A DNA stretch of 12,682 nucleotides from a virus. The stretch is from the UHGV virus genome UHGV-0126489; one strand, given 5' to 3'. Shown here one piece after another: positions 635 through 12,675 of the stretch. How positions within the stretch are numbered: the first letter of the stretch is position 1; every line of letters starts with the position of its first letter. The notes beneath the pieces are model-generated. The model saw nothing but the letters and a program-made list of their open reading frames with translations. It ran no database searches and was not told the origin of the DNA. The position numbers were made by a program, and so were the translations under genes.

Positions 635-1387
635 TTATCTCGTCACTTTTCTTAATTGCGCCTCAGCATATGCTTCTTCCTGCCAGCACTTTGTCACCAG
701 TTTATCAATGACATCTGCATATCCTTTGTACCACTGATAATCCGTCAGGTCTGGTACCAGCTTCTGGACATGATGCCGCGCCAGTGTGGTTGGTAAACGG
801 CTAAACCGATTTCCATTGCAACGCCCACAAATCTTATAAACAGGCGTGCCATGAAGCCGGGTCCTTTTTTCATCCAGGACAATACCTTTACCCTTACACC
901 CTCTGCACGCTGTGCTGACTTCTCCCTTACCATGACAATGCTGACATAGTTCCTTCACCCACTCTTCCTTGATAACAGATTCCCCGCTTCTGGAGTGTTT
1001 CACCACTTCGCGCAATACATTATGAAATCCAGTACCAGCACAATGCTCACAGCGAGCCTTACTTGCCGCAGACCTGGAATAATCAGCAAAGGCAAAATTC
1101 ACAAGGTAAGGGATGATCTGTAACCGGGTTTCTTCACTCAATTTGTTCAATGTCGGGTTATCCAGTGCCATCGCGTAATTGAGCAGACCTTCAATCGCAA
1201 ATTGAGGATCCTGAACACCAACTTTTGCCAGGAATAAGGCAAACCCAAGCGGTGCTTTCGACTGCACCATCCCCTGCGCAGCCATCACATCCGTAATCGT
1301 TAAACCACCTGAGCCTGTCGCCGGTGCGTCATCGCTCAATTTTGGAGATTTTGGGGAGTAATATTTTGGTAAGGCTTCAAGGTTCAT
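635..1387 (-). CDS. Q-like late antitermination protein (QuuQ-like, 250 aa) with four CxxCxGxG zinc-finger repeats
   Basis: ATG at 1387-1385. Translation contains CEHCAGTG, CQHCHGKG, CRGCKGKG and CGRCNGN. Sits at the distal end of the nin-like block, followed by a promoter-like sequence and terminator. Recalled length match to E. coli Qin QuuQ (250 aa), from memory only. Confidence 0.55.
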   Translation of the reverse strand: MNLEALPKYYSPKSPKLSDDAPATGSGGLTITDVMAAQGMVQSKAPLGFALFLAKVGVQDPQFAIEGLLNYAMALDNPTLNKLSEETRLQIIPYLVNFAFADYSRSAASKARCEHCAGTGFHNVLREVVKHSRSGESVIKEEWVKELCQHCHGKGEVSTACRGCKGKGIVLDEKRTRLHGTPVYKICGRCNGNRFSRLPTTLARHHVQKLVPDLTDYQWYKGYADVIDKLVTKCWQEEAYAEAQLRKVTR

Positions 1388-1400
1388 GCTCGTTCTCCAC

Positions 1401-2367
1401 TTACGCCAGTACGCCTATTGCCAGCGCACGATCGATAAAACGAAATATCAGCTCCAGCTGGGAACCATACATCTCTTCAAATGCCACGGTATCCGCATGC
1501 AGCTCGTCGTGATGCTTTCTGCACAAAGGCAACACAAAGAGATCATGTGCTTTTGTACCCATTCCCCCCTGACCGTGGCCTACCACAACATGCACACGGC
1601 TGTGTCTTAACCCAGCGCGTGTACTTTTCATTAACCCAGCGGCGACGTTTTGGGCGTAACATAAAAGACTCCGGCGACTCTGGATCCACTTTCAGCGCCA
1701 GCACCTTTTTCGCTTTATCCTGGATAATGCTGGTGGCAGGAACCGAAGGAACAAGGTCACTCTCCCGGGTGACAGACGGCACAACAGGCTTCGGTAATCT
1801 CAGTGCCTTACGGGCTGCACTTTCCGGTAAGGCATCAGCCAGGTCATTACGAACCAGCCACCAGCACAGTTCCGGCATTGTCACAACGTGACTATCATCA
1901 AAACCGAGATCACGGCGCACAACAGATAACACCCAGCGGGCACAGTTATCCGTTGCCATTGATTCCAGCCGTTCCGTGAACTGATCGCGCAGCTGGTTAT
2001 CGCAGTGCCAGCACAGACGGATTGCACCCGGAGCGTGTCGCATTGTGGTCATGTTCTCGCTGTGCCAGTCGGAATGAGGCCACTGGCAGCCTTTTTCACG
2101 AAGTAACCAGCTTTCAAGACATTCCACTCCACCAGCACGACGGATCACTGCCTCATTGCGGAACACGGCCCGAACGGCAGGATCATCCGCCAGCGGTTGT
2201 GATGCCGCCGGAACGGCACCACTGGCGAAAGATGAATAACGTTCCGGCTCAGGCTCCAGCAGGACACGCCCCTGCATAAACAGGGGCATCAGCTCTGAAC
2301 CTGGTCTGAACAATACGATCCCCATACGCGGGGCAATTTCAGGGGTCAGTAGTGCTCTCACAGTCAC
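1401..2367 (-). pseudogene. DUF968 (YdfU-like) gene interrupted by a frameshift: 274-aa ORF (1543..2367) plus 76-aa ORF (1401..1631) in another frame
   Basis: The two protein-like ORFs overlap by 89 nt and the span is 967 nt (3n+1). Upstream frame ends ...QPCACCGRP; downstream frame carries GHGQGGMGTKAHD...LCRKHHDELH (HNH-like). A run of six C (about 1563-1568) lies in the overlap. Could be a true pseudogene or a homopolymer sequencing error. Confidence 0.5.
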
Positions 2368-3197: not shown

Positions 3198-3587
3198 TCA
3201 GGCGGCTGCACCCGCCGTTTTCTCGTACTTACTGATAGTGATCTCGACCTTCCCTTCCGGGATAACCGGTCCCCACTCCACCAGCATTCTTTTCACCTGA
3301 CTGTCGTCTTCCCACACACCCGCGTGGGTCAGGGCGTCAAACAGCGCCTTGTTATAGTTGTCCAGATCGCGGATCCGGTTATCCGGAGGAAACAACACGA
3401 TCTCCACTGAAGCAGGTGCCGACGTTGGTTTCGGCAGACGACGTAACTGCTCAACTATTGCTGCGCACGCCGCGCTCTGGAATTTTCGCCCCGCCGCGCT
3501 TATCAGGCTCTTACCAGCAAACGCCCCTTTGTTGGGGTGTCTCCAGTACGTGTTCACGCTGGGCGGAAAAGGCAGGATCAGCTTCAT
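3198..3587 (-). CDS. rusA: RusA-family Holliday junction resolvase, 129 aa
   Basis: MKLILPFPPSVNTYWRH... plus conserved RDLDN and DAL motifs. Start ATG overlaps the upstream stop (ATGA). Confidence 0.8.
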   Translation of the reverse strand: MKLILPFPPSVNTYWRHPNKGAFAGKSLISAAGRKFQSAACAAIVEQLRRLPKPTSAPASVEIVLFPPDNRIRDLDNYNKALFDALTHAGVWEDDSQVKRMLVEWGPVIPEGKVEITISKYEKTAGAAA

Positions 3588-3910
3588 ACTTTCAGGTCCC
3601 TCTCATGTAACCAGTGGGTTGCACGCAGCCTTGCGTTTTCCTCACCGGCAAGCAGTGCGCGGATAATCCCGACCGCCTCGCTGTCGTCGTCCTTCACCGC
3701 GGTATGAAGCGTTATCCCCCGGGCCACGCCACGCTTTATCGTGATGACGCCTTTTTTCTCCAGTGCGCGAAGATGCTCCACCGCTGCATTCACTGAACGG
3801 TATCCCAGCATGGTTGCCACCTCCTGATTAGTTGGCGGGAAGCCACGTTCTTGCTGGTAAGAAATCAGCATATCCAGCACCTGCTGCTGGCATTGAGTTA
3901 ACGTCGTCAT
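3584..3910 (-). CDS. LexA N-terminal DNA-binding-domain-only protein (winged helix), 108 aa, no S24 peptidase domain
   Basis: LTQCQQQVLDMLISYQQERGFPPTNQEVATMLGYRSVNAAVEHLRALEKKGVITIKRGVARGITL aligns with LexA residues 1-70 (from memory: [55 protein letters not shown]). Protein ends after about 40 more residues with no Ser/Lys dyad. ATGA overlap with the upstream gene. Confidence 0.6.
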   Translation of the reverse strand: MTTLTQCQQQVLDMLISYQQERGFPPTNQEVATMLGYRSVNAAVEHLRALEKKGVITIKRGVARGITLHTAVKDDDSEAVGIIRALLAGEENARLRATHWLHERDLKV

Positions 3911-4560
3911 GCCGCCATCTCCCTGACCAGTTTTTCCGCCTGCTGGCGAACCTGCGCCAGAAACGCCTCACCACATGCCTCAAGTTCATCGCGCCCGATG
4001 TAGCTAATTGCCGGTCCCTTCCAGGTCTTGTCGAAAACAGCAATAGCACCAGCGAAGAAAGCGCCTGTCGGCACCTGCTTCTCATCCTTCGGGATAAACC
4101 AGGCAGGCAGTTCAAAACCAATACGCCCGCGAATAAAAGCAATATGGTCCGCATCTTCCGGCCACCACACTTCGCTGGTGGCAGCTTTGATCAGGAAAAC
4201 ATAGCGCCCACCCTTATCACGCATGGCACTGGCATGTTTCATGATGTAACGCATGCCGGTGATGTATTGCCCCTCATGCTGACTGGCGCGGCTGTATGGG
4301 GGATTACCAAAGGCAGCCCCTTTAAGCTCCGCAAGACGTTCTGACCAGTCATGCGCCAGCGCGTTGTCTTCCGCCGTGTAATACGCAGCACATTTGGCGT
4401 TATCACCGTCAGTGAACAGATCCAGAACAAACGGGCCAAACAGGGTGTTAATTCCCCAGAAAATGTTGTCCGGCGTGCGCCACTGATCACCCACTTCCTT
4501 CAGTTCATGGGCTGGTTTGTTCCGCAGTTCCACCAACTCCTGGCAATATTTATTACTCAT
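3907..4560 (-). CDS. Phage Dam-type DNA N6-adenine methyltransferase, 217 aa
   Basis: FGNPPYS motif (N/D-PP-Y catalytic motif IV). Start set to ATG at 4560-4558 (MSNKYCQ...), overlapping the upstream stop as TAATG; the ORF track's longer start is at 4593. Confidence 0.7.
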   Translation of the reverse strand: MSNKYCQELVELRNKPAHELKEVGDQWRTPDNIFWGINTLFGPFVLDLFTDGDNAKCAAYYTAEDNALAHDWSERLAELKGAAFGNPPYSRASQHEGQYITGMRYIMKHASAMRDKGGRYVFLIKAATSEVWWPEDADHIAFIRGRIGFELPAWFIPKDEKQVPTGAFFAGAIAVFDKTWKGPAISYIGRDELEACGEAFLAQVRQQAEKLVREMAA

Positions 4561-5054
4561 TAAGCCCCCACGTAATTCCCTGACAGATACCACTCATCAC
4601 CCGATACAGCGCGCTTGCTGCTTTTCCGTAAACACTGCTCACGACGCGCCAGAAAATTGTTTCGTTCTGGCTGGGAGTGGCTTTCACGGAATGCCGCCAT
4701 CCACACCGTTGCAGCACGACGGTATAAGCCCCTGGACTCCAGTTCTTCCGCCTGGCGGGTCAGGCACAAAATCACCCGGGGATCGTTAGTGCCGACATAG
4801 AAATTGCGCACAGGTCTGGTTTCACGAACTGGTTGTGGTTCCGGCTCCTGCGCTCTCTCAGTCAGGCGTGGGAAATGTCTGCGTGTATCTCCTTCACAAC
4901 GGTGAGCCACACGCCCACTCTGACGTAACTTGCTTGCTGACTGCAGAACGCGCTGCCGTGAGTAACCTGCAAAAGCATCCGCAATGTCTCCGGAAGTACA
5001 CCCCGGATGGGCTTCAATGAATTTCTGAACGTCATTTAACAGACTCATGATCAC
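4560..5054 (-). CDS. yfdN: YfdN-like protein (164 aa) with PerC-like C-terminal motif
   Basis: Length equals recalled K-12 CPS-53 YfdN (164 aa). C-terminal LESRGLYRRAATVWMAAF resembles the PerC/Pch GL-x-RRAA-x-W motif. GTG at 5054 or ATG at 5048 with GGGGG 5 nt upstream. Symbol from memory, not alignment. Confidence 0.45.
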   Translation of the reverse strand: MIMSLLNDVQKFIEAHPGCTSGDIADAFAGYSRQRVLQSASKLRQSGRVAHRCEGDTRRHFPRLTERAQEPEPQPVRETRPVRNFYVGTNDPRVILCLTRQAEELESRGLYRRAATVWMAAFRESHSQPERNNFLARREQCLRKSSKRAVSGDEWYLSGNYVGA

Positions 5055-6977: not shown

Positions 6978-7175
6978 TTATGCCGCAGCACTGTTAGTCT
7001 TTTGATATAAAGACACGTCAACTTTCAGTTTCCCGTTAGTAATTTTTTCTAACTGGTACGCTCGGCCTTCAGGAATAATCTCAGGCCACTCTGAAACAGA
7101 CGGATGCTTAATACCTAGGGCTTCGGCGGTTTTACAAACTCCGCCGAAATAATTAATCACGTCGGATTTCCGCAT
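6978..7175 (-). CDS. cro: Cro-like repressor, 65 aa
   Basis: ATG at 7175 with GGGAGA 6 nt upstream; divergent from the repressor gene across the operator region; size and sequence pattern like lambda Cro. Confidence 0.7.
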   Translation of the reverse strand: MRKSDVINYFGGVCKTAEALGIKHPSVSEWPEIIPEGRAYQLEKITNGKLKVDVSLYQKTNSAAA

Positions 7176-7207
7176 TTCTGTCTCCCGTTAAATTACGTTA
7201 AGCAGAA

Positions 7208-7272
7208 ATGTAGGATATCCAACATGCCAATGTCAAGAATCCTACATGGGCATGTGGTAGGATTGCCTACAT
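7208..7272. promoter_or_regulatory. OR-like tripartite operator with divergent promoters (pR on minus strand; pRM region on plus)
   Basis: Three 18-bp sites: 7208-7225 ATGTAGGATATCCAACAT, 7230-7247 ATGTCAAGAATCCTACAT, 7255-7272 TGGTAGGATTGCCTACAT. Minus-strand TTGACA (7236-7231) - 17 nt - CTACAT (7213-7208). Site 3 overlaps the repressor ATG at 7271. Confidence 0.6.
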
Positions 7273-7915
7273 GATGAACATGAGTGATCGTATTCGCCAA
7301 AGGCGAAAAAAACTGAACCTGACACAACAAGCACTGGCTGATTTGACTGGTGTGAACCGTGTCACGGTTACTGGATGGGAAAAGGACGACTACCAACCAA
7401 ATGGAGCCAACCTTCAAGCCCTAGCCAACGCACTTAAATGCGATCCTCTGTGGCTTGTTAGCGGAAAAGGCTCGCCTGAACCAAAGATAAATCTAAAACC
7501 TGAAATATTCGCAGTTAAAAAAGTCCCCCTCATCTCGTGGGTTCAGGCGGGTTCATGGACAATGACGGAGCCTGGTGTCAGGAAAGAAGATGCTGAAGAG
7601 TGGGTTTATACTACCGCCCTTGTATCAGAAATGGCATTTGCACTACGGGTCCGTGGTGATTCAATGACCAATCCCCTCGGCTCACCATCGATACCAGAAG
7701 GTTCTATCGTTATCGTAGAGCCAGATATTATTGATACAGAGTGTATTAACGGAAAAATCGTTGTTGCCCATATCAATGGTGGGCAAGAAGCGACACTCAA
7801 AAAATTTGTTGAGGACTGGCCGAACAGGTATCTCGTCCCACTAAATCCTAACTATAAAACTATTGAATGCGGTGAGAACTGCAGAATAGTTGGTCTTGTC
7901 ATAATGGATTTTTGA
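7271..7915 (+). CDS. Prophage repressor, P22 C2 / lambda CI type (XRE HTH N-terminal domain plus S24 LexA-like autopeptidase), 214 aa
   Basis: N-terminal HTH (IRQRRKKLNLTQQALADLTGVNRVTVTGWE); C-terminal GDSM Ser nucleophile motif and downstream Lys; collinear with recalled P22 C2. Start could be any of the ATGs at 7271/7274/7280. Confidence 0.85.
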   Translation: MMNMSDRIRQRRKKLNLTQQALADLTGVNRVTVTGWEKDDYQPNGANLQALANALKCDPLWLVSGKGSPEPKINLKPEIFAVKKVPLISWVQAGSWTMTEPGVRKEDAEEWVYTTALVSEMAFALRVRGDSMTNPLGSPSIPEGSIVIVEPDIIDTECINGKIVVAHINGGQEATLKKFVEDWPNRYLVPLNPNYKTIECGENCRIVGLVIMDF

Positions 7916-7977: not shown

Positions 7978-8031
7978 ATGTAGGATAACCAACATAAACT
8001 CTTGACACTTGCATGTTGGATATCCTACATT
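7978..8031 (+). promoter_or_regulatory. OL-like operator pair with pL-like promoter directed rightward
   Basis: Sites 7978-7995 ATGTAGGATAACCAACAT and 8013-8030 ATGTTGGATATCCTACAT. TTGACA (8002-8007) - 17 nt - CTACAT (8025-8030). The segment 8002-8030 is nearly identical to the pR segment on the other strand. Confidence 0.55.
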
Positions 8032-8587: not shown

Positions 8588-8840
8588 TTGATTTTCCTTT
8601 TATGTATACGGGCTTAAAAGGATACCACCGAGCCTGAAGTGGTGAAAAGACAGGCACATAACAGCTAAGTATTTTCAACCAGAGAGAATCCTTAGCGTTG
8701 TGGTGAATGCGGCTCAGCGCACGCGGGTTAAGGTTGAGGCTGACAGTCGACCTTCTGTGGATACCCACCCGTCTGGTGTGCAACCTTCGCCAGGCACCGG
8801 GAGGCACCCGGCACCACAACTTTATGCTGTGTGTAGTCCT

Positions 8841-8887
8841 GGCGGTACCAGTTTGTACCCTTGCTTCAGGCTGGTACCGTCCTTTTT
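8841..8887 (+). terminator. Candidate intrinsic terminator / structured RNA 3' end
   Basis: GGCGGTACC(AG) pairs with (CT)GGTACCGTCC around a 19-23 nt loop, followed by TTTTT at 8883-8887. Orientation matches pL transcription. Confidence 0.4.
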
Positions 8888-9024
8888 ACAAAACAGAGAA
8901 GAGCATCACCGGACGACGGGCTCATAACCCAATCCATCCGGGCGGCTGCCGCCGCAGGTGTTCTTCTCTGTTTTGTGGAGAAACTAATCGGCCTTGCAGG
9001 GTCGATATGATGAGGAGCAGCAAA

Positions 9025-9387
9025 ATGGCTAGCGAACGCAGTACTGATGTGCAGGCATTTATTGGGGAGCTGGACGGCGGCGTATTTGAAACCAAAATCG
9101 GCGCAGTTCTCAGTGAAGTCGCTTCCGGTGTGATGAACACGAAAACCAAAGGTAAGGTCTCGCTCAACCTGGAAATCGAACCATTTGATGAGAACCGTGT
9201 GAAAATCAAACACAAACTCTCATATGTTCGCCCGACTAACCGCGGGAAAATTTCCGAAGAAGACACCACCGAAACGCCGATGTATGTCAATCGCGGTGGT
9301 CGCCTGACTATTCTGCAGGAAGACCAGGGACAATTACTGACTCTTGCCGGTGAACCTGACGGAAAACTCCGCGCAGCAGGTCGTTAA
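9025..9387 (+). CDS. yfdP: YfdP-like protein of unknown function, 120 aa
   Basis: ATG at 9025 with GAGGAG 7 nt upstream. The ORF track's 226-aa version includes a non-coding, structured upstream part. Length equals recalled K-12 YfdP (120 aa); gene order yfdP-Q-R-S matches. Confidence 0.5.
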   Translation: MASERSTDVQAFIGELDGGVFETKIGAVLSEVASGVMNTKTKGKVSLNLEIEPFDENRVKIKHKLSYVRPTNRGKISEEDTTETPMYVNRGGRLTILQEDQGQLLTLAGEPDGKLRAAGR

Positions 9388-11294: not shown

Positions 11295-12103
11295 TGACCA
11301 CATTTACCGATAAAGAACTGATTAAAGAAATCAAAGAACGAATCAGCAGCATGGACGTGCGAGACAATGTTGAGCGCCGTGCTTATGAAATTGCTCTGGC
11401 ATCGCTGGAAGAGGATCCGGTGGCATGGCTGCATTCAGACAATGGCTTAGGTATTCCGGCAATAACCAGGAGTAAAAACATTGCTGACAGTTGGTTATCA
11501 AAGGGCTGGTATGTTCAGCCGCTATATATAGCCAAGCCAGTGCCGGTGGTGCCAGATGCTCGTCCGTCTTTAAATAATGGCATAGTCGGTTTTGATGAAG
11601 GCTGGAACGCCTGCCGCGCTGCCATGCTCTATGGTGCCGTACCTGCAAGCCAGGCTTACAAGTTGCCACAAACGCAGTTTAAACAGGTTGCTGACCTCTA
11701 CGAAATGCAATTTGATGACGGTCGCACTTGTGCCTTTCACACTGATGCGCAAAAGGCTGTGCAATGGCTTCAGGCGTGCGACGGAAACAGGGTTCAGGAA
11801 TACGTTAAGCTGGAACGATTGCAGAACGCACTGTCTGGCAACTCTCCGGTAACTCCGGATGGTTGGGTTATGGTGCCGAAGAGACTAACAGCCGAGAACG
11901 GCGCTAAGGGGGCGCTATCCGGTGAATTTTCAGAAACTACGTTTATAAGCTGCCTGGAATGCTTTGGCGATGATGATTGCGATACCTGTGACGGGAGCGG
12001 ACGTATTGAAATTAAAGTGCCAGTCACGTGGTCGACCATAAAATCTATCTGGGATAAAGGTATCGAGTATTTTGCAGCAAAACCATCACAAGAGGTGAAG
12101 TGA
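11294..12103 (+). CDS. Hypothetical protein, 269 aa, with C-terminal Cys/Asp cluster (CLECFGDDDCDTCDGSG)
   Basis: ATG overlaps the upstream stop (TAATG); long protein-like ORF. The CxxC...CxxC cluster suggests a metal-binding knuckle. Confidence 0.5.
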   Translation: MTTFTDKELIKEIKERISSMDVRDNVERRAYEIALASLEEDPVAWLHSDNGLGIPAITRSKNIADSWLSKGWYVQPLYIAKPVPVVPDARPSLNNGIVGFDEGWNACRAAMLYGAVPASQAYKLPQTQFKQVADLYEMQFDDGRTCAFHTDAQKAVQWLQACDGNRVQEYVKLERLQNALSGNSPVTPDGWVMVPKRLTAENGAKGALSGEFSETTFISCLECFGDDDCDTCDGSGRIEIKVPVTWSTIKSIWDKGIEYFAAKPSQEVK

Positions 12104-12675
12104 TGAACAACTTAATGATCGACCTTGAGACGATGGGGAAAAATAAGGATGCACCGATCGTTTCCATTGGCGCGGTGTTCTTCACTCCAGAAACCGGAGA
12201 CATCGGACAAGAATTCTATACGGTTGTTAGCCTGGAAAGTGCTATGGGGCAAGGAGCTACACCTGACGGCGATACCATCCTGTGGTGGTTGAAACAAAGC
12301 CCTGAAGCACGAGCTGCAATCTGTATTGATGATACTTTGTCGATCAGCGATGCTCTCTCAGAACTAAATCATTTCATTAACCGGCACGCAGACAATACGA
12401 AATATTTAAAAGTCTGGGGTAACGGAGCCACCTTCGACAACGTAATTTTACGTGGAGCTTATGAGCGAGCAGGACAAATCTGCCCGTGGGCATACTGGAA
12501 TGACCACGATGTACGCACGATCGTTACGCTTGGGCGTTCCATCGGATTCGACCCCAAAATGGACATGCCTTTCGATGGCGAACGGCACAACGCCCTGGCT
12601 GATGCCCGTCATCAGGCAAAATATGTTTCCGCTATCTGGCAGAAATTAATTCCTGCCACCAGCACAGAATTATGA
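12103..12675 (+). CDS. DEDD-type 3'-5' exonuclease (DnaQ-like fold), about 190 aa
   Basis: N-terminal MIDLETMG (D-x-E motif), central WGNGATFD, C-terminal H-x4-D (HNALAD). ATG at 12103 overlaps the upstream TGA, with AGAGGTGA upstream. Confidence 0.6.
   Translation: MNNLMIDLETMGKNKDAPIVSIGAVFFTPETGDIGQEFYTVVSLESAMGQGATPDGDTILWWLKQSPEARAAICIDDTLSISDALSELNHFINRHADNTKYLKVWGNGATFDNVILRGAYERAGQICPWAYWNDHDVRTIVTLGRSIGFDPKMDMPFDGERHNALADARHQAKYVSAIWQKLIPATSTEL

What the first reader, a model, noticed from the sequence alone, without database searches (positions are those of the whole stretch)
3584..3910. LexA DNA-binding domain without the autocleavage domain, encoded in the nin-like block
The first 70 or so residues track the LexA winged-helix domain closely, but the protein stops at 108 aa with no S24 peptidase. 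An uncleavable LexA-like DNA binder expressed from a prophage could occupy SOS boxes or phage operators and decouple some promoters from RecA-mediated induction. The main repressor of this phage is itself LexA-type autocleavable.
Basis: partly seen in the sequence, partly recalled or inferred. Interest (0 to 1): 0.45.

Follow-up and report, generated by a model that had tools for sequence, protein, structure and literature searches.

The report
Phage-borne LexA DNA-binding domain, uncleavable
A conserved prophage gene encodes the DNA-binding half of the bacterial SOS repressor LexA joined to a short helical tail but with no self-cleaving half. The family is common and already annotated, yet nobody has tested what it does, and its DNA target could not be determined here.

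Summary
Window 3584-3910 (minus strand) is a real 108-aa gene. Residues 1-69 are a LexA-type winged helix (Pfam PF01726, E=2.6e-19; 49-51% identity and 0.9-1.3 A rmsd to the E. coli LexA DNA-binding domain). There is no S24 peptidase domain and no cleavage site. Residues 74-103 form a family-specific two-helix hairpin, probably a dimerisation module.

The gene is under purifying selection (pN/pS 0.10). Its start and stop are coupled by ATGA overlaps to a phage Dam methylase and to RusA, in the delayed-early block between the replication genes and Q. It occurs in 2233 of 5426 complete E. coli genomes and in phages SfV, SfII, cdtI, mEp460 and Stx2c, annotated as "LexA family transcriptional regulator".

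Four of the five LexA base-contact residues are kept, but Glu44 is lost in the tailed phage family members examined. The prophage has no SOS boxes. The gene's position implies expression in lytic growth, not in the lysogen. Immunity regions vary around a near-identical protein, so phage operators are unlikely targets.

The closest studied analogue is GIL01 gp6, an independently truncated LexA homologue. I found no functional study of this family. It is a new member of a known kind, of modest interest.

The parts
3584..3910 (-). Whole gene: 108-aa LexA-N-terminal-domain protein (stop codon included)
   Evidence: ORF list. Full-length match to PHROG 362 at E=6e-59. pN/pS 0.10 among 54 distinct alleles.
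3704..3910 (-). Residues 1-69: LexA-type winged-helix DNA-binding domain
3755..3793 (-). Residues 40-52, recognition helix VNAAVEHLRALEK. N41, A42 and E45 are kept from LexA, E44 is Val. S39 lies just before the helix.
   Evidence: Helix 40-52 in the model. Translation. Alignment to LexA. Contact residues from PMC3091678.
3707..3745 (-). Residues 56-68: beta-hairpin wing containing the invariant R64-G65-I66
   Evidence: Strands 56-58 and 66-68. Invariant columns in the alignments.
3602..3691 (-). Residues 74-103: family-specific two-helix C-terminal hairpin (helices 74-88 and 93-103), proposed dimerisation module
   Evidence: AF2 secondary structure. A97 and L101 are invariant and A79 and A93 nearly invariant across 30 relatives down to 38% identity. 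No significant similarity to LexA. pN/pS 0.23. Translation.
3907..3910 (-). ATGA overlap: stop of the Dam methylase gene and start of the LexA-like gene
   Evidence: Read from the sequence and ORF coordinates.
3584..3587 (-). ATGA overlap: stop of the LexA-like gene and start of rusA
   Evidence: Read from the sequence and ORF coordinates.
3907..4593 (-). Upstream neighbour: phage N-6-adenine methyltransferase (Dam)
   Evidence: Pfam PF05869, E=1.1e-45. RefSeq annotation of an identical locus.
3198..3587 (-). Downstream neighbour: RusA Holliday-junction resolvase
   Evidence: Pfam PF05866. Annotation.
635..1387 (-). Antiterminator Q, marking the end of the delayed-early (nin-like) block
   Evidence: Pfam PF03589, E=9.5e-54.
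7207..7236 (-). PR-like promoter flanked by the CI/Cro operator palindromes. It is the presumed source of the transcript that reaches the gene.
   Evidence: Promoter scan, 10 of 12 matches. Palindromes at 7208-7225 and 7222-7255.
7271..7915 (+). CI-type main repressor (HTH_3 + Peptidase_S24). It is the only S24 sequence in the window.
   Evidence: Pfam. tblastn with the LexA C-terminal domain.

Best explanation
The gene encodes a phage transcription factor derived from the N-terminal half of a proteobacterial LexA. It has a LexA-type winged helix (residues 1-69) fused to a conserved two-helix tail (74-103). It has no S24 peptidase domain and no cleavage site, so RecA* cannot switch it off. It is transcribed and translated together with the delayed-early genes (PerC-like, Dam, RusA, KilA-N, DUF968, Q) from PR. 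It is therefore made once the CI repressor is gone, during lytic growth. Most probably it dimerises through the tail and binds CTGT-type half-sites that lie outside its own phage. The obvious candidates are host SOS-box-like operators, where it would act as a RecA-insensitive stand-in for the cleaved LexA. Shown here: fold, domain loss, conservation, selection, synteny, operon position, and the absence of SOS boxes in the phage. Inferred: dimerisation, the DNA target, and whether it represses or activates. I put about 0.9 on 'uncleavable LexA-fold DNA-binding regulator of the lytic programme' and about 0.3 on canonical SOS boxes being the target. The score given is for the combined statement.
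For: The fold and sequence are specifically those of the LexA N-terminal domain. S39, N41, A42 and E45 of the five LexA contact residues are kept. No S24 domain or remnant is present. The 'LLAGE' that aligns with the LexA Ala84-Gly85 site lies at the end of helix 4. Its AG is not conserved in the family, and the tail alone has no significant similarity to LexA. The tail is conserved down to 38% identity, with A97 and L101 invariant. In the LexA-based bacterial two-hybrid system, the LexA DNA-binding domain alone does not repress sulA-lacZ but does so when fused to any homodimerising partner (PMC7160566). A conserved extra module is therefore what a functional LexA-domain repressor needs. Selection is purifying: pN/pS 0.10 overall and 0.03 in the DNA-binding domain. 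ATGA overlaps occur at both ends, there is no promoter-like site just upstream, and PR lies about 3.3 kb upstream. The order LexA-like gene - (RusA) - DUF968 - Q-type antiterminator, in the delayed-early operon, is shared with relatives of 42-50% identity in Cronobacter, Klebsiella and Salmonella prophages; in the Klebsiella locus the gene in the antiterminator position has no Pfam hit. The E. coli module keeps a 97-100% identical protein next to varying Cro and replication genes, which argues for a target outside the immunity region. There is also a link to the SOS system in relatives. In 72 of 80 Klebsiella viral contigs and in one Salmonella prophage, the gene sits 440-616 bp downstream of a near-consensus SOS box. 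In Klebsiella it lies in an apparent operon with a phage dinI.
Against: Glu44, one of the five LexA contact residues, is Val here and is never Glu in the tailed family. It is Glu in 12 of 13 full-length LexAs from the same search and in the full-length LexA genes of the genome loci, nearly all of the 78 loci other than L006/L007. Specificity may therefore have shifted. The relatives that sit behind an SOS box have lost both Glu44 and Glu45 (LL or FI), so in them the box more likely reports control by host LexA than self-binding. Dimerisation is only inferred. The model's pTM is 0.57, and no solved structure matched the tail. No binding site was found. The only studied phage LexA-domain protein, GIL01 gp6, recognises a non-LexA sequence and activates transcription (PMC6182141).
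Confidence: 0.45

Rival explanations
1. It is a regulator with diverged specificity. It binds a sequence that is not an SOS box, in this or another mobile element or in the host, and represses or activates a specific promoter. This is what GIL01 gp6 does at the tectivirus late promoter.
For: gp6 is a truncated LexA homologue that binds GaCACAn-nTGTGaC and activates P3 (PMC6182141). Glu44 is lost across the tailed family, and positions 44 and 45 vary between subfamilies: VE, AE, TD, FE, LL, ND, FI. No SOS boxes occur in the phage.
Against: No candidate operator was found. The conserved module has almost no intergenic DNA. A cross-subfamily search for shared inverted repeats found only terminator-like hairpins and a repeat inside the replication gene. 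Immunity and Q types vary around an unchanged protein. The protein is not related to gp6 beyond the common LexA fold (no BLASTP alignment), and it has LexA's Asn41 where gp6 has its key Lys38.
Confidence: 0.35
2. It works mainly through protein contacts made by the conserved tail or the winged helix, for example with a neighbouring gene product such as DUF968 or KilA-N, or with a host protein. DNA binding would be secondary.
For: The conserved tail has no known counterpart. The gene is tightly linked to DUF968 in the prophage contexts examined in all four genera.
Against: The strongest constraint is on the DNA-binding domain (pN/pS 0.03, against 0.23 for the tail). S39, N41 and R64-G65-I66 are invariant. 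That pattern is what a DNA-binding protein would show.
Confidence: 0.1
3. It is a substrate or decoy for RecA*/LexA-type cleavage. The 'LLAGE' at residues 86-90 would be a retained Ala-Gly site cut in trans.
For: HMMER and BLASTP extend the alignment with LexA through 'VAAGE' at the Ala84-Gly85 site.
Against: The segment is helical in the model (helix 74-88). AG is present in roughly a third of 30 family members. The tail alone shows no significant similarity to LexA (best E=0.11, and to a different region).
Confidence: 0.03
4. It is a decaying fragment of a captured lexA gene with no function.
For: It is a truncated homologue of a host gene.
Against: pN/pS is 0.10 among 54 alleles. The protein is kept full-length in thousands of database members. 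The tail and the synteny are conserved across four genera. The gene is translationally coupled to its neighbours.
Confidence: 0.02

Closest known systems
E. coli LexA, N-terminal DNA-binding domain (residues 1-69; PDB 1lea, 3jso)
   Different: No linker with a cleavage site and no S24 catalytic/dimerisation domain. E44 is Val and R28 is Asn. It has its own two-helix tail. It scores 70 bits against the lexA equivalog cutoff of 111. It has no SOS box upstream, so no LexA-style autoregulation (0 of 80 loci).
GIL01 gp6 (Bacillus tectivirus), a truncated LexA homologue that activates the late promoter P3 (PMC6182141)
   Same: A phage-encoded protein that consists of a LexA DNA-binding domain without the autocleavage domain and is expressed with early lytic genes.
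   Different: gp6 is 66 aa with no tail. It derives from a Bacillus-type LexA (44% identity to B. thuringiensis LexA). It shows no significant BLASTP alignment to this protein and uses Lys38 where this protein keeps LexA's Asn41. This looks like an independent capture in a different phage and host lineage. The function of this protein is untested.
Engineered LexA-DNA-binding-domain fusions used in the bacterial two-hybrid system (Dmitrova et al. 1998, as used in PMC7160566)
   Same: The architecture is a LexA DNA-binding domain plus a heterologous dimerising module. Such fusions repress an SOS-box promoter (sulA-lacZ), whereas the domain alone does not.
   Different: Those are artificial and use the wild-type LexA recognition helix. 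Here the tail is natural, its dimerisation is only inferred, and the recognition helix differs at positions 40 and 44.
Non-inducible LexA mutants (LexA3/G85D, S119A; PDB 1jhf, 1jhh)
   Same: Both would be LexA-type DNA binders that RecA* cannot inactivate (structures listed).
   Different: Those are full-length host repressors with point mutations. That they block SOS induction is established knowledge recalled from memory, not something tested here. This protein is a separate phage gene that lacks the whole C-terminal domain.
Phage-encoded DinI homologues
   Same: They are small SOS-related modulators carried in the same early block. In Klebsiella prophages a dinI homologue sits two genes upstream of the LexA-like gene, behind one SOS box.
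   Different: The protein is unrelated and acts on RecA rather than DNA (known function recalled from memory). No dinI is present in this window.

Membership tests
LexA SOS repressor (NCBIfam TIGR00498 equivalog) | N-terminal LexA-type winged-helix domain (PF01726) | tested here: met
LexA SOS repressor (NCBIfam TIGR00498 equivalog) | C-terminal S24 peptidase / dimerisation domain with a Ser-Lys dyad | tested here: not met
   No Peptidase_S24 hit. The protein ends at residue 108, and rusA starts at its stop codon. The LexA C-terminal domain finds only CI at 7523-7864.
LexA SOS repressor (NCBIfam TIGR00498 equivalog) | Ala-Gly self-cleavage site in the linker | tested here: not met
   A88-G89 lies at the end of a predicted helix. 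AG is not conserved in the family. The tail is not significantly similar to LexA.
LexA SOS repressor (NCBIfam TIGR00498 equivalog) | Whole-protein score above the curated cutoff | tested here: not met
   70.3 bits against a cutoff of 110.95.
LexA SOS repressor (NCBIfam TIGR00498 equivalog) | Binds CTGT-N8-ACAG through helix-3 residues S39, N41, A42, E44 and E45 | tested here: inconclusive
   Four of five residues are kept and E44 is Val. E44 is kept in 12 of 13 full-length LexAs but never in the tailed family. Binding itself cannot be tested with these tools.
LexA SOS repressor (NCBIfam TIGR00498 equivalog) | Autoregulation through an SOS box at its own promoter | tested here: not met
   0 of 80 E. 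coli-type loci have a box of 14 bits or more within 1.5 kb upstream. Most full-length lexA loci in the same scan, and the host lexA in L001, do have one.
Prophage LexA_DNA_bind-only proteins with a C-terminal helical tail (PHROG 362; NCBI 'LexA family transcriptional regulator', about 105-135 aa) | Full-length match to the family profile | tested here: met
   PHROG 362 at E=6e-59, residues 1-108 on profile positions 1-106 of 106. 94-100% identity to annotated E. coli and phage proteins.
Prophage LexA_DNA_bind-only proteins with a C-terminal helical tail (PHROG 362; NCBI 'LexA family transcriptional regulator', about 105-135 aa) | Conserved tail motif (A79, A93, A97, L101) after the wing | tested here: met
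   Alignments A1 and A2.
Prophage LexA_DNA_bind-only proteins with a C-terminal helical tail (PHROG 362; NCBI 'LexA family transcriptional regulator', about 105-135 aa) | Position in the delayed-early block upstream of (RusA)-DUF968-Q | tested here: met
   Window. L001. Cronobacter, Klebsiella and Salmonella loci (the Klebsiella gene in the Q position has no Pfam hit). RusA, KilA-N and DUF968 follow in 59-62 of 63 viral contigs, and a Q like this one in 31 of 63.
GIL01 gp6-type truncated LexA activators (Betatectivirus) | Sequence relatedness to gp6 and the conserved Lys38 in the recognition helix | tested here: not met
   No BLASTP alignment with E<=100. Asn41 aligns with gp6 Lys38.
GIL01 gp6-type truncated LexA activators (Betatectivirus) | Binds a palindrome overlapping the -35 element of the late promoter and activates it | not testable with these tools
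   Late transcription here depends on a Q antiterminator. No shared palindrome was found.

The most novel reading that the evidence does not exclude
The protein is a RecA-insensitive surrogate for LexA. Once the prophage has been induced and host LexA has been cleaved, it would re-occupy SOS-box operators. That would shut down part of the SOS regulon during lytic growth: division inhibition, mutagenic polymerases, SOS-induced toxins, colicins, and the LexA-controlled antirepressors of rival prophages. In Klebsiella and Salmonella relatives the gene sits behind an SOS box, in Klebsiella together with dinI. That arrangement would make a phage-borne negative-feedback module on the host DNA-damage response. 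With the gene present in about 41% of complete E. coli genomes, it would be a common hidden modifier of SOS dynamics.
Probability: 0.25. Interest if true: 0.6.

Novelty: new member of a known kind. Interest (0 to 1): 0.33.

Why it matters
If the protein binds SOS boxes, many E. coli, Shigella, Klebsiella and Salmonella strains, including Stx2c- and cdt-converting phage lysogens, carry a second LexA-like repressor that DNA damage cannot remove. It would appear exactly when a prophage is induced. That could change how long SOS genes, mutagenesis, toxins and competing prophages stay on after antibiotics that trigger SOS. If it binds something else, it is a second, independent case, after GIL01 gp6, of a phage re-using the LexA DNA-binding domain as its own regulator. 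That would be a modest addition to what is known. Either way the question can be settled with a reporter assay and an EMSA.

Tried and rejected
1. SOS-box searches. CTGT-N8-ACAG with up to 1 mismatch gave 7 matches in the window against 4.6 expected, and 15 in L001 against 12.3 expected. The only convincing ones are the host lexA boxes.

2. PWM scan. A matrix built from 29 SOS boxes recalled from the literature scored nothing above 10.5 bits in the window or the prophage. The lowest training score was 12.9, and the host lexA controls scored 19.7 and 20.6.

3. Variable spacing. Exact CTGT-N(0-20)-ACAG gave 3 matches against 3.6 expected in the window and 6 against 7.6 in the prophage.

4. Shared inverted repeats across nine loci from different subfamilies. 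This found only a terminator-like AAACC(CCGC)...GGTTT hairpin, lying just downstream of the Q-position gene in the two annotated loci that have it, and a GGTTGC-N3-GCAACC repeat that lies inside the replication gene in the Cronobacter locus (L002). No candidate operator emerged.

5. Cleavage-site vestige ('LLAGE' against LexA 'VAAGE'). Rejected because the segment is helical, not conserved, and not significant on its own.

6. S24 remnant or frameshifted full-length lexA. Rejected.

7. Defence-system membership (PADLOC). Only a sub-threshold HTH similarity was found.

8. The genome-contig scan with the family alignment returned almost only host lexA genes. It was useful as a control but gave only two family loci, L006 and L007. 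The viral scan with P0262 found nothing usable.

9. Literature. Eight full-text searches found no functional study of this enterobacterial phage family. They found only GIL01 gp6 and papers in which 'LexA family transcriptional regulator' refers to CI-type repressors. The LexA-DNA structure paper (PMC2921665) is not held.

10. Homodimer prediction. The structure tool takes one chain, and only window or database sequences, so this could not be run.

Full report

No S24 peptidase domain is detected. The protein scores 70 bits against the lexA equivalog cutoff of 111. A tblastn with the LexA C-terminal domain finds only the separate CI repressor at 7523-7864. That includes the 'nin-like' position and the S24-type main repressor at 7271-7915, which is HTH_3 + Peptidase_S24.

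**It is a real, selected gene.** Its ATG overlaps the stop of the upstream Dam methylase gene (ATGA at 3907-3910). Its stop overlaps the start of rusA (ATGA at 3584-3587). Among 81 copies (54 distinct DNA alleles, 18 protein variants) pN/pS is 0.10: 0.03 in residues 1-70 and 0.23 in residues 71-108. The same DNA occurs in 2233 of 5426 complete E. coli genomes, with up to four copies per genome. It is annotated 'LexA family transcriptional regulator', 'LexA family protein' or 'LexA repressor', between a phage N-6-adenine methyltransferase (or, in some genomes, a PerC-family gene) and RusA. It is also present in sequenced phages SfV (orf42), SfII, SfIV, cdtI, mEp460, Ayreon and many Stx2c/Stx2a phages. 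It matches PHROG 362 ('transcriptional repressor') end to end at E=6e-59.

**The C-terminal part.** Residues 74-88 and 93-103 are predicted as two helices. HMMER and BLASTP extend the LexA alignment to 'LLAGE', which falls opposite the LexA cleavage site 'VAAGE'. That suggested a retained Ala-Gly site, and I tested the idea. The segment is helical in the model. AG is present in roughly a third of 30 family members. The tail alone has no significant similarity to LexA (best E=0.11, and to another region). It is therefore not a cleavage site.

The tail is nevertheless conserved in relatives down to 38% identity, with A97 and L101 invariant and A79 and A93 nearly so. No solved structure matches it specifically. 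In the LexA-based bacterial two-hybrid system, the LexA DNA-binding domain alone fails to repress sulA-lacZ but represses once fused to any homodimerising partner (PMC7160566). I therefore infer that the tail supplies dimerisation. This inference is not shown here.

**Context and timing.** The gene lies in the rightward early operon, in this order:
- PR-like promoter at 7236->7207, flanked by 18-bp operator palindromes
- Cro (6978-7175)
- a CII/YmfL-like gene
- DUF4222
- a 330-aa replication-region protein
- PerC/YfdN-like gene (4560-5054)
- Dam
- the LexA-like gene
- RusA
- KilA-N
- DUF968
- antiterminator Q (635-1387)

No promoter-like site lies just upstream of the gene. It should therefore be expressed as a delayed-early lytic gene, after CI has been inactivated, and not in the repressed prophage.

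The order LexA-like gene - (RusA) - DUF968 - antiterminator recurs around relatives of 42-50% identity in Cronobacter, Klebsiella and Salmonella prophages. In 63 E. coli-type viral contigs the protein stays 97-100% identical. PerC, RusA, KilA-N and DUF968 accompany it in 59-62 contigs. A Cro like this phage's is found in only 14, and the replication protein is found in 39, mostly at about 67% identity. The gene therefore belongs to a mobile early module that combines with different immunity regions. That argues against the phage's own operators as its target.

**What it might bind.** The published LexA contact residues are Ser39, Asn41, Ala42, Glu44 and Glu45 (PMC3091678). Here S39, N41, A42 and E45 are kept and position 44 is Val. 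Across the data the difference is systematic. Full-length LexAs have E at 44 in 12 of 13 proteins, and so do the full-length LexA genes in the genome loci (nearly all of the 78 loci other than L006/L007). Tailed phage proteins have V, A, T, F, L or N and never E. The short 'EE' proteins I inspected (for example P0147) are truncated fragments of ordinary lexA genes. From memory, the altered-specificity LexA408 changes residues 40-42. Keeping N41 and A42 therefore favours retention of the CTGT-type half-site, but this is a lead and not a test.

I searched for sites in several ways, and none gave a candidate:
- Exact or one-mismatch CTGT-N8-ACAG is at chance level in the window and in the full prophage.
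- A PWM built from 29 recalled SOS boxes scores nothing above 10.5 bits in the phage, while it recovers the two host lexA boxes in the same locus at 19.7 and 20.6 bits.
- CTGT...ACAG at spacings 0-20 is not enriched.
- A cross-subfamily search for shared inverted repeats found only terminator-like hairpins and a repeat that, where annotated (Cronobacter L002), lies inside the replication gene.

If the protein recognises SOS-type sites, they therefore lie in the host or in other elements, not in its own genome.

**A link to SOS in relatives.** In Klebsiella prophages the 130-aa homologue lies 616 bp downstream of a near-consensus SOS box (TACTGTTTATTTATACAGTA, 26.8 bits). The box overlaps the -10 of a promoter that drives a phage dinI, a 96-aa ORF and then the LexA-like gene. 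This arrangement is seen in 72 of 80 viral contigs. A Salmonella homologue has a 26.4-bit box 440 bp upstream. None of the 80 E. coli-type loci has such a box. The two box-linked subfamilies have replaced both Glu44 and Glu45 (LL and FI). The box therefore more probably means control by host LexA than self-recognition. It does tie the family functionally to the DNA-damage response.

**Comparison with known systems.** The closest characterised analogue is gp6 of the Bacillus tectivirus GIL01. It is a truncated LexA homologue, 44% identical to the host LexA domain. It binds a non-LexA palindrome overlapping the -35 of the late promoter P3 and activates it (PMC6182141). gp6 is 66 aa, has no tail, and gives no significant BLASTP alignment with the present protein. 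It also carries its key Lys38 where this protein keeps LexA's Asn41. The two are therefore independent captures of the LexA domain in different phage and host lineages.

The protein is not a LexA. It fails the S24 domain, cleavage site, score cutoff and autoregulation criteria. It is a clear member of the annotated but unstudied prophage family PHROG 362. Eight full-text searches found no functional study of that family.

**Verdict.** The best-supported reading is an uncleavable, probably dimeric, LexA-fold DNA-binding regulator of the lytic programme (about 0.9). Its target is likely outside the phage. Canonical SOS boxes are plausible but unproven (about 0.3), and a diverged site is about equally likely. 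The thing itself is already annotated and has a characterised analogue, so novelty is 'new member of a known kind' and interest is modest. What keeps it worth a simple experiment is its prevalence (41% of complete E. coli genomes), its link to SOS boxes and dinI in relatives, and the absence of any functional data.

Noticed in passing
window 1401-2367 (minus strand): The DUF968 gene is split into a 274-aa ORF (1543..2367) and a 76-aa ORF (1401..1631). In the otherwise 99.7-99.8% identical prophage L001 it is one intact 329-aa gene (17789-18778). BLAST shows a deletion of about 29 bp in the window near position 1577-1582, so the gene is probably a frameshifted pseudogene here.
   Followed up: partly
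L003/L004 7385-8393 (Klebsiella prophages); also 72 of 80 viral contigs L166-L245: A near-consensus SOS box (TACTGTTTATTTATACAGTA) overlaps the -10 of a promoter driving a phage dinI homologue, a 96-aa ORF of unknown family, and then the 130-aa LexA-domain gene. This looks like an SOS-controlled operon inside the prophage early region.
   Followed up: partly
L005 7561 and 10739 (Salmonella prophage, GCA_022846635.1): Two strong SOS boxes lie in one prophage. One is 440 bp upstream of the LexA-domain gene. The other (CACTGTAAAAATAAACAGTG, 21 bits) is just upstream of an N6_N4 methyltransferase gene downstream of Q. The same prophage carries a solitary Cas1-domain gene (12593-13390) next to an AcrVA2-like gene (11794-12666).
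   Followed up: no
window 7208-7255 and 7978-8030: Three copies of an 18-bp palindrome (ATGTAGGATATCCAACAT and variants), plus a separate 12-nt inverted repeat at 7222-7255, flank divergent PR-like (7236->7207) and PL-like (8002->8031) promoters. They are presumably the CI/Cro operators. Their form is ATGT-N10-ACAT, not the SOS-box form.
   Followed up: partly
window 4560-5054 (minus strand): A 164-aa protein has a C-terminal PerC domain and is annotated yfdN / PerC family transcriptional regulator in L001. It travels with the LexA-like gene in 61 of 63 viral contigs. PerC homologues on prophages are known virulence-gene activators in EPEC and EHEC (from memory).
   Followed up: no
protein list (e.g. 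P0126, P0133, P0144, P0149, P0154, P0157, P0162, P0163): Many proteins of 140-350 aa contain two LexA_DNA_bind stretches in tandem. They may be single-chain 'dimers' of the LexA domain. Their origin and context are unknown.
   Followed up: no
L249-L256 (viral contigs), gene at 4001-4474: Another LexA_DNA_bind-only group of 157-158 aa has the recognition helix PNAAASHLKAL (E44 to Ala, E45 to Ser) and no SOS box within 1.5 kb upstream. Its C-terminal region differs from the tail described here.
   Followed up: no
L001 30944-35620 (NZ_AP022098.1): The near-identical prophage ends next to a truncated tRNA-dihydrouridine synthase gene, about 4 kb from the host dinF-lexA operon. The phage LexA-like gene and host lexA therefore lie within about 15 kb of each other. 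This is probably a coincidence of the attachment site. A Panacea-domain gene sits at the prophage end (30118-30690).
   Followed up: no
proteins P0121, P0253, P0272, P0026, P0092: Some database entries fuse Dam (PF05869) and LexA_DNA_bind in one product of 180-243 aa. Given the ATGA overlap between the two genes, these are most likely frameshifts or gene-calling merges rather than true fusions.
   Followed up: no
window 8707-9387 and L001 25148-25835: The 226-aa ORF listed at 8707..9387 corresponds in the RefSeq record to a frameshifted hypothetical gene followed by yfdP. The leftward operon (yfdP, yfdQ, yfdR 5'-deoxynucleotidase, a 3'-5' exonuclease) matches genes of the K-12 cryptic prophage CPS-53 (K-12 assignment from memory).
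   Followed up: no
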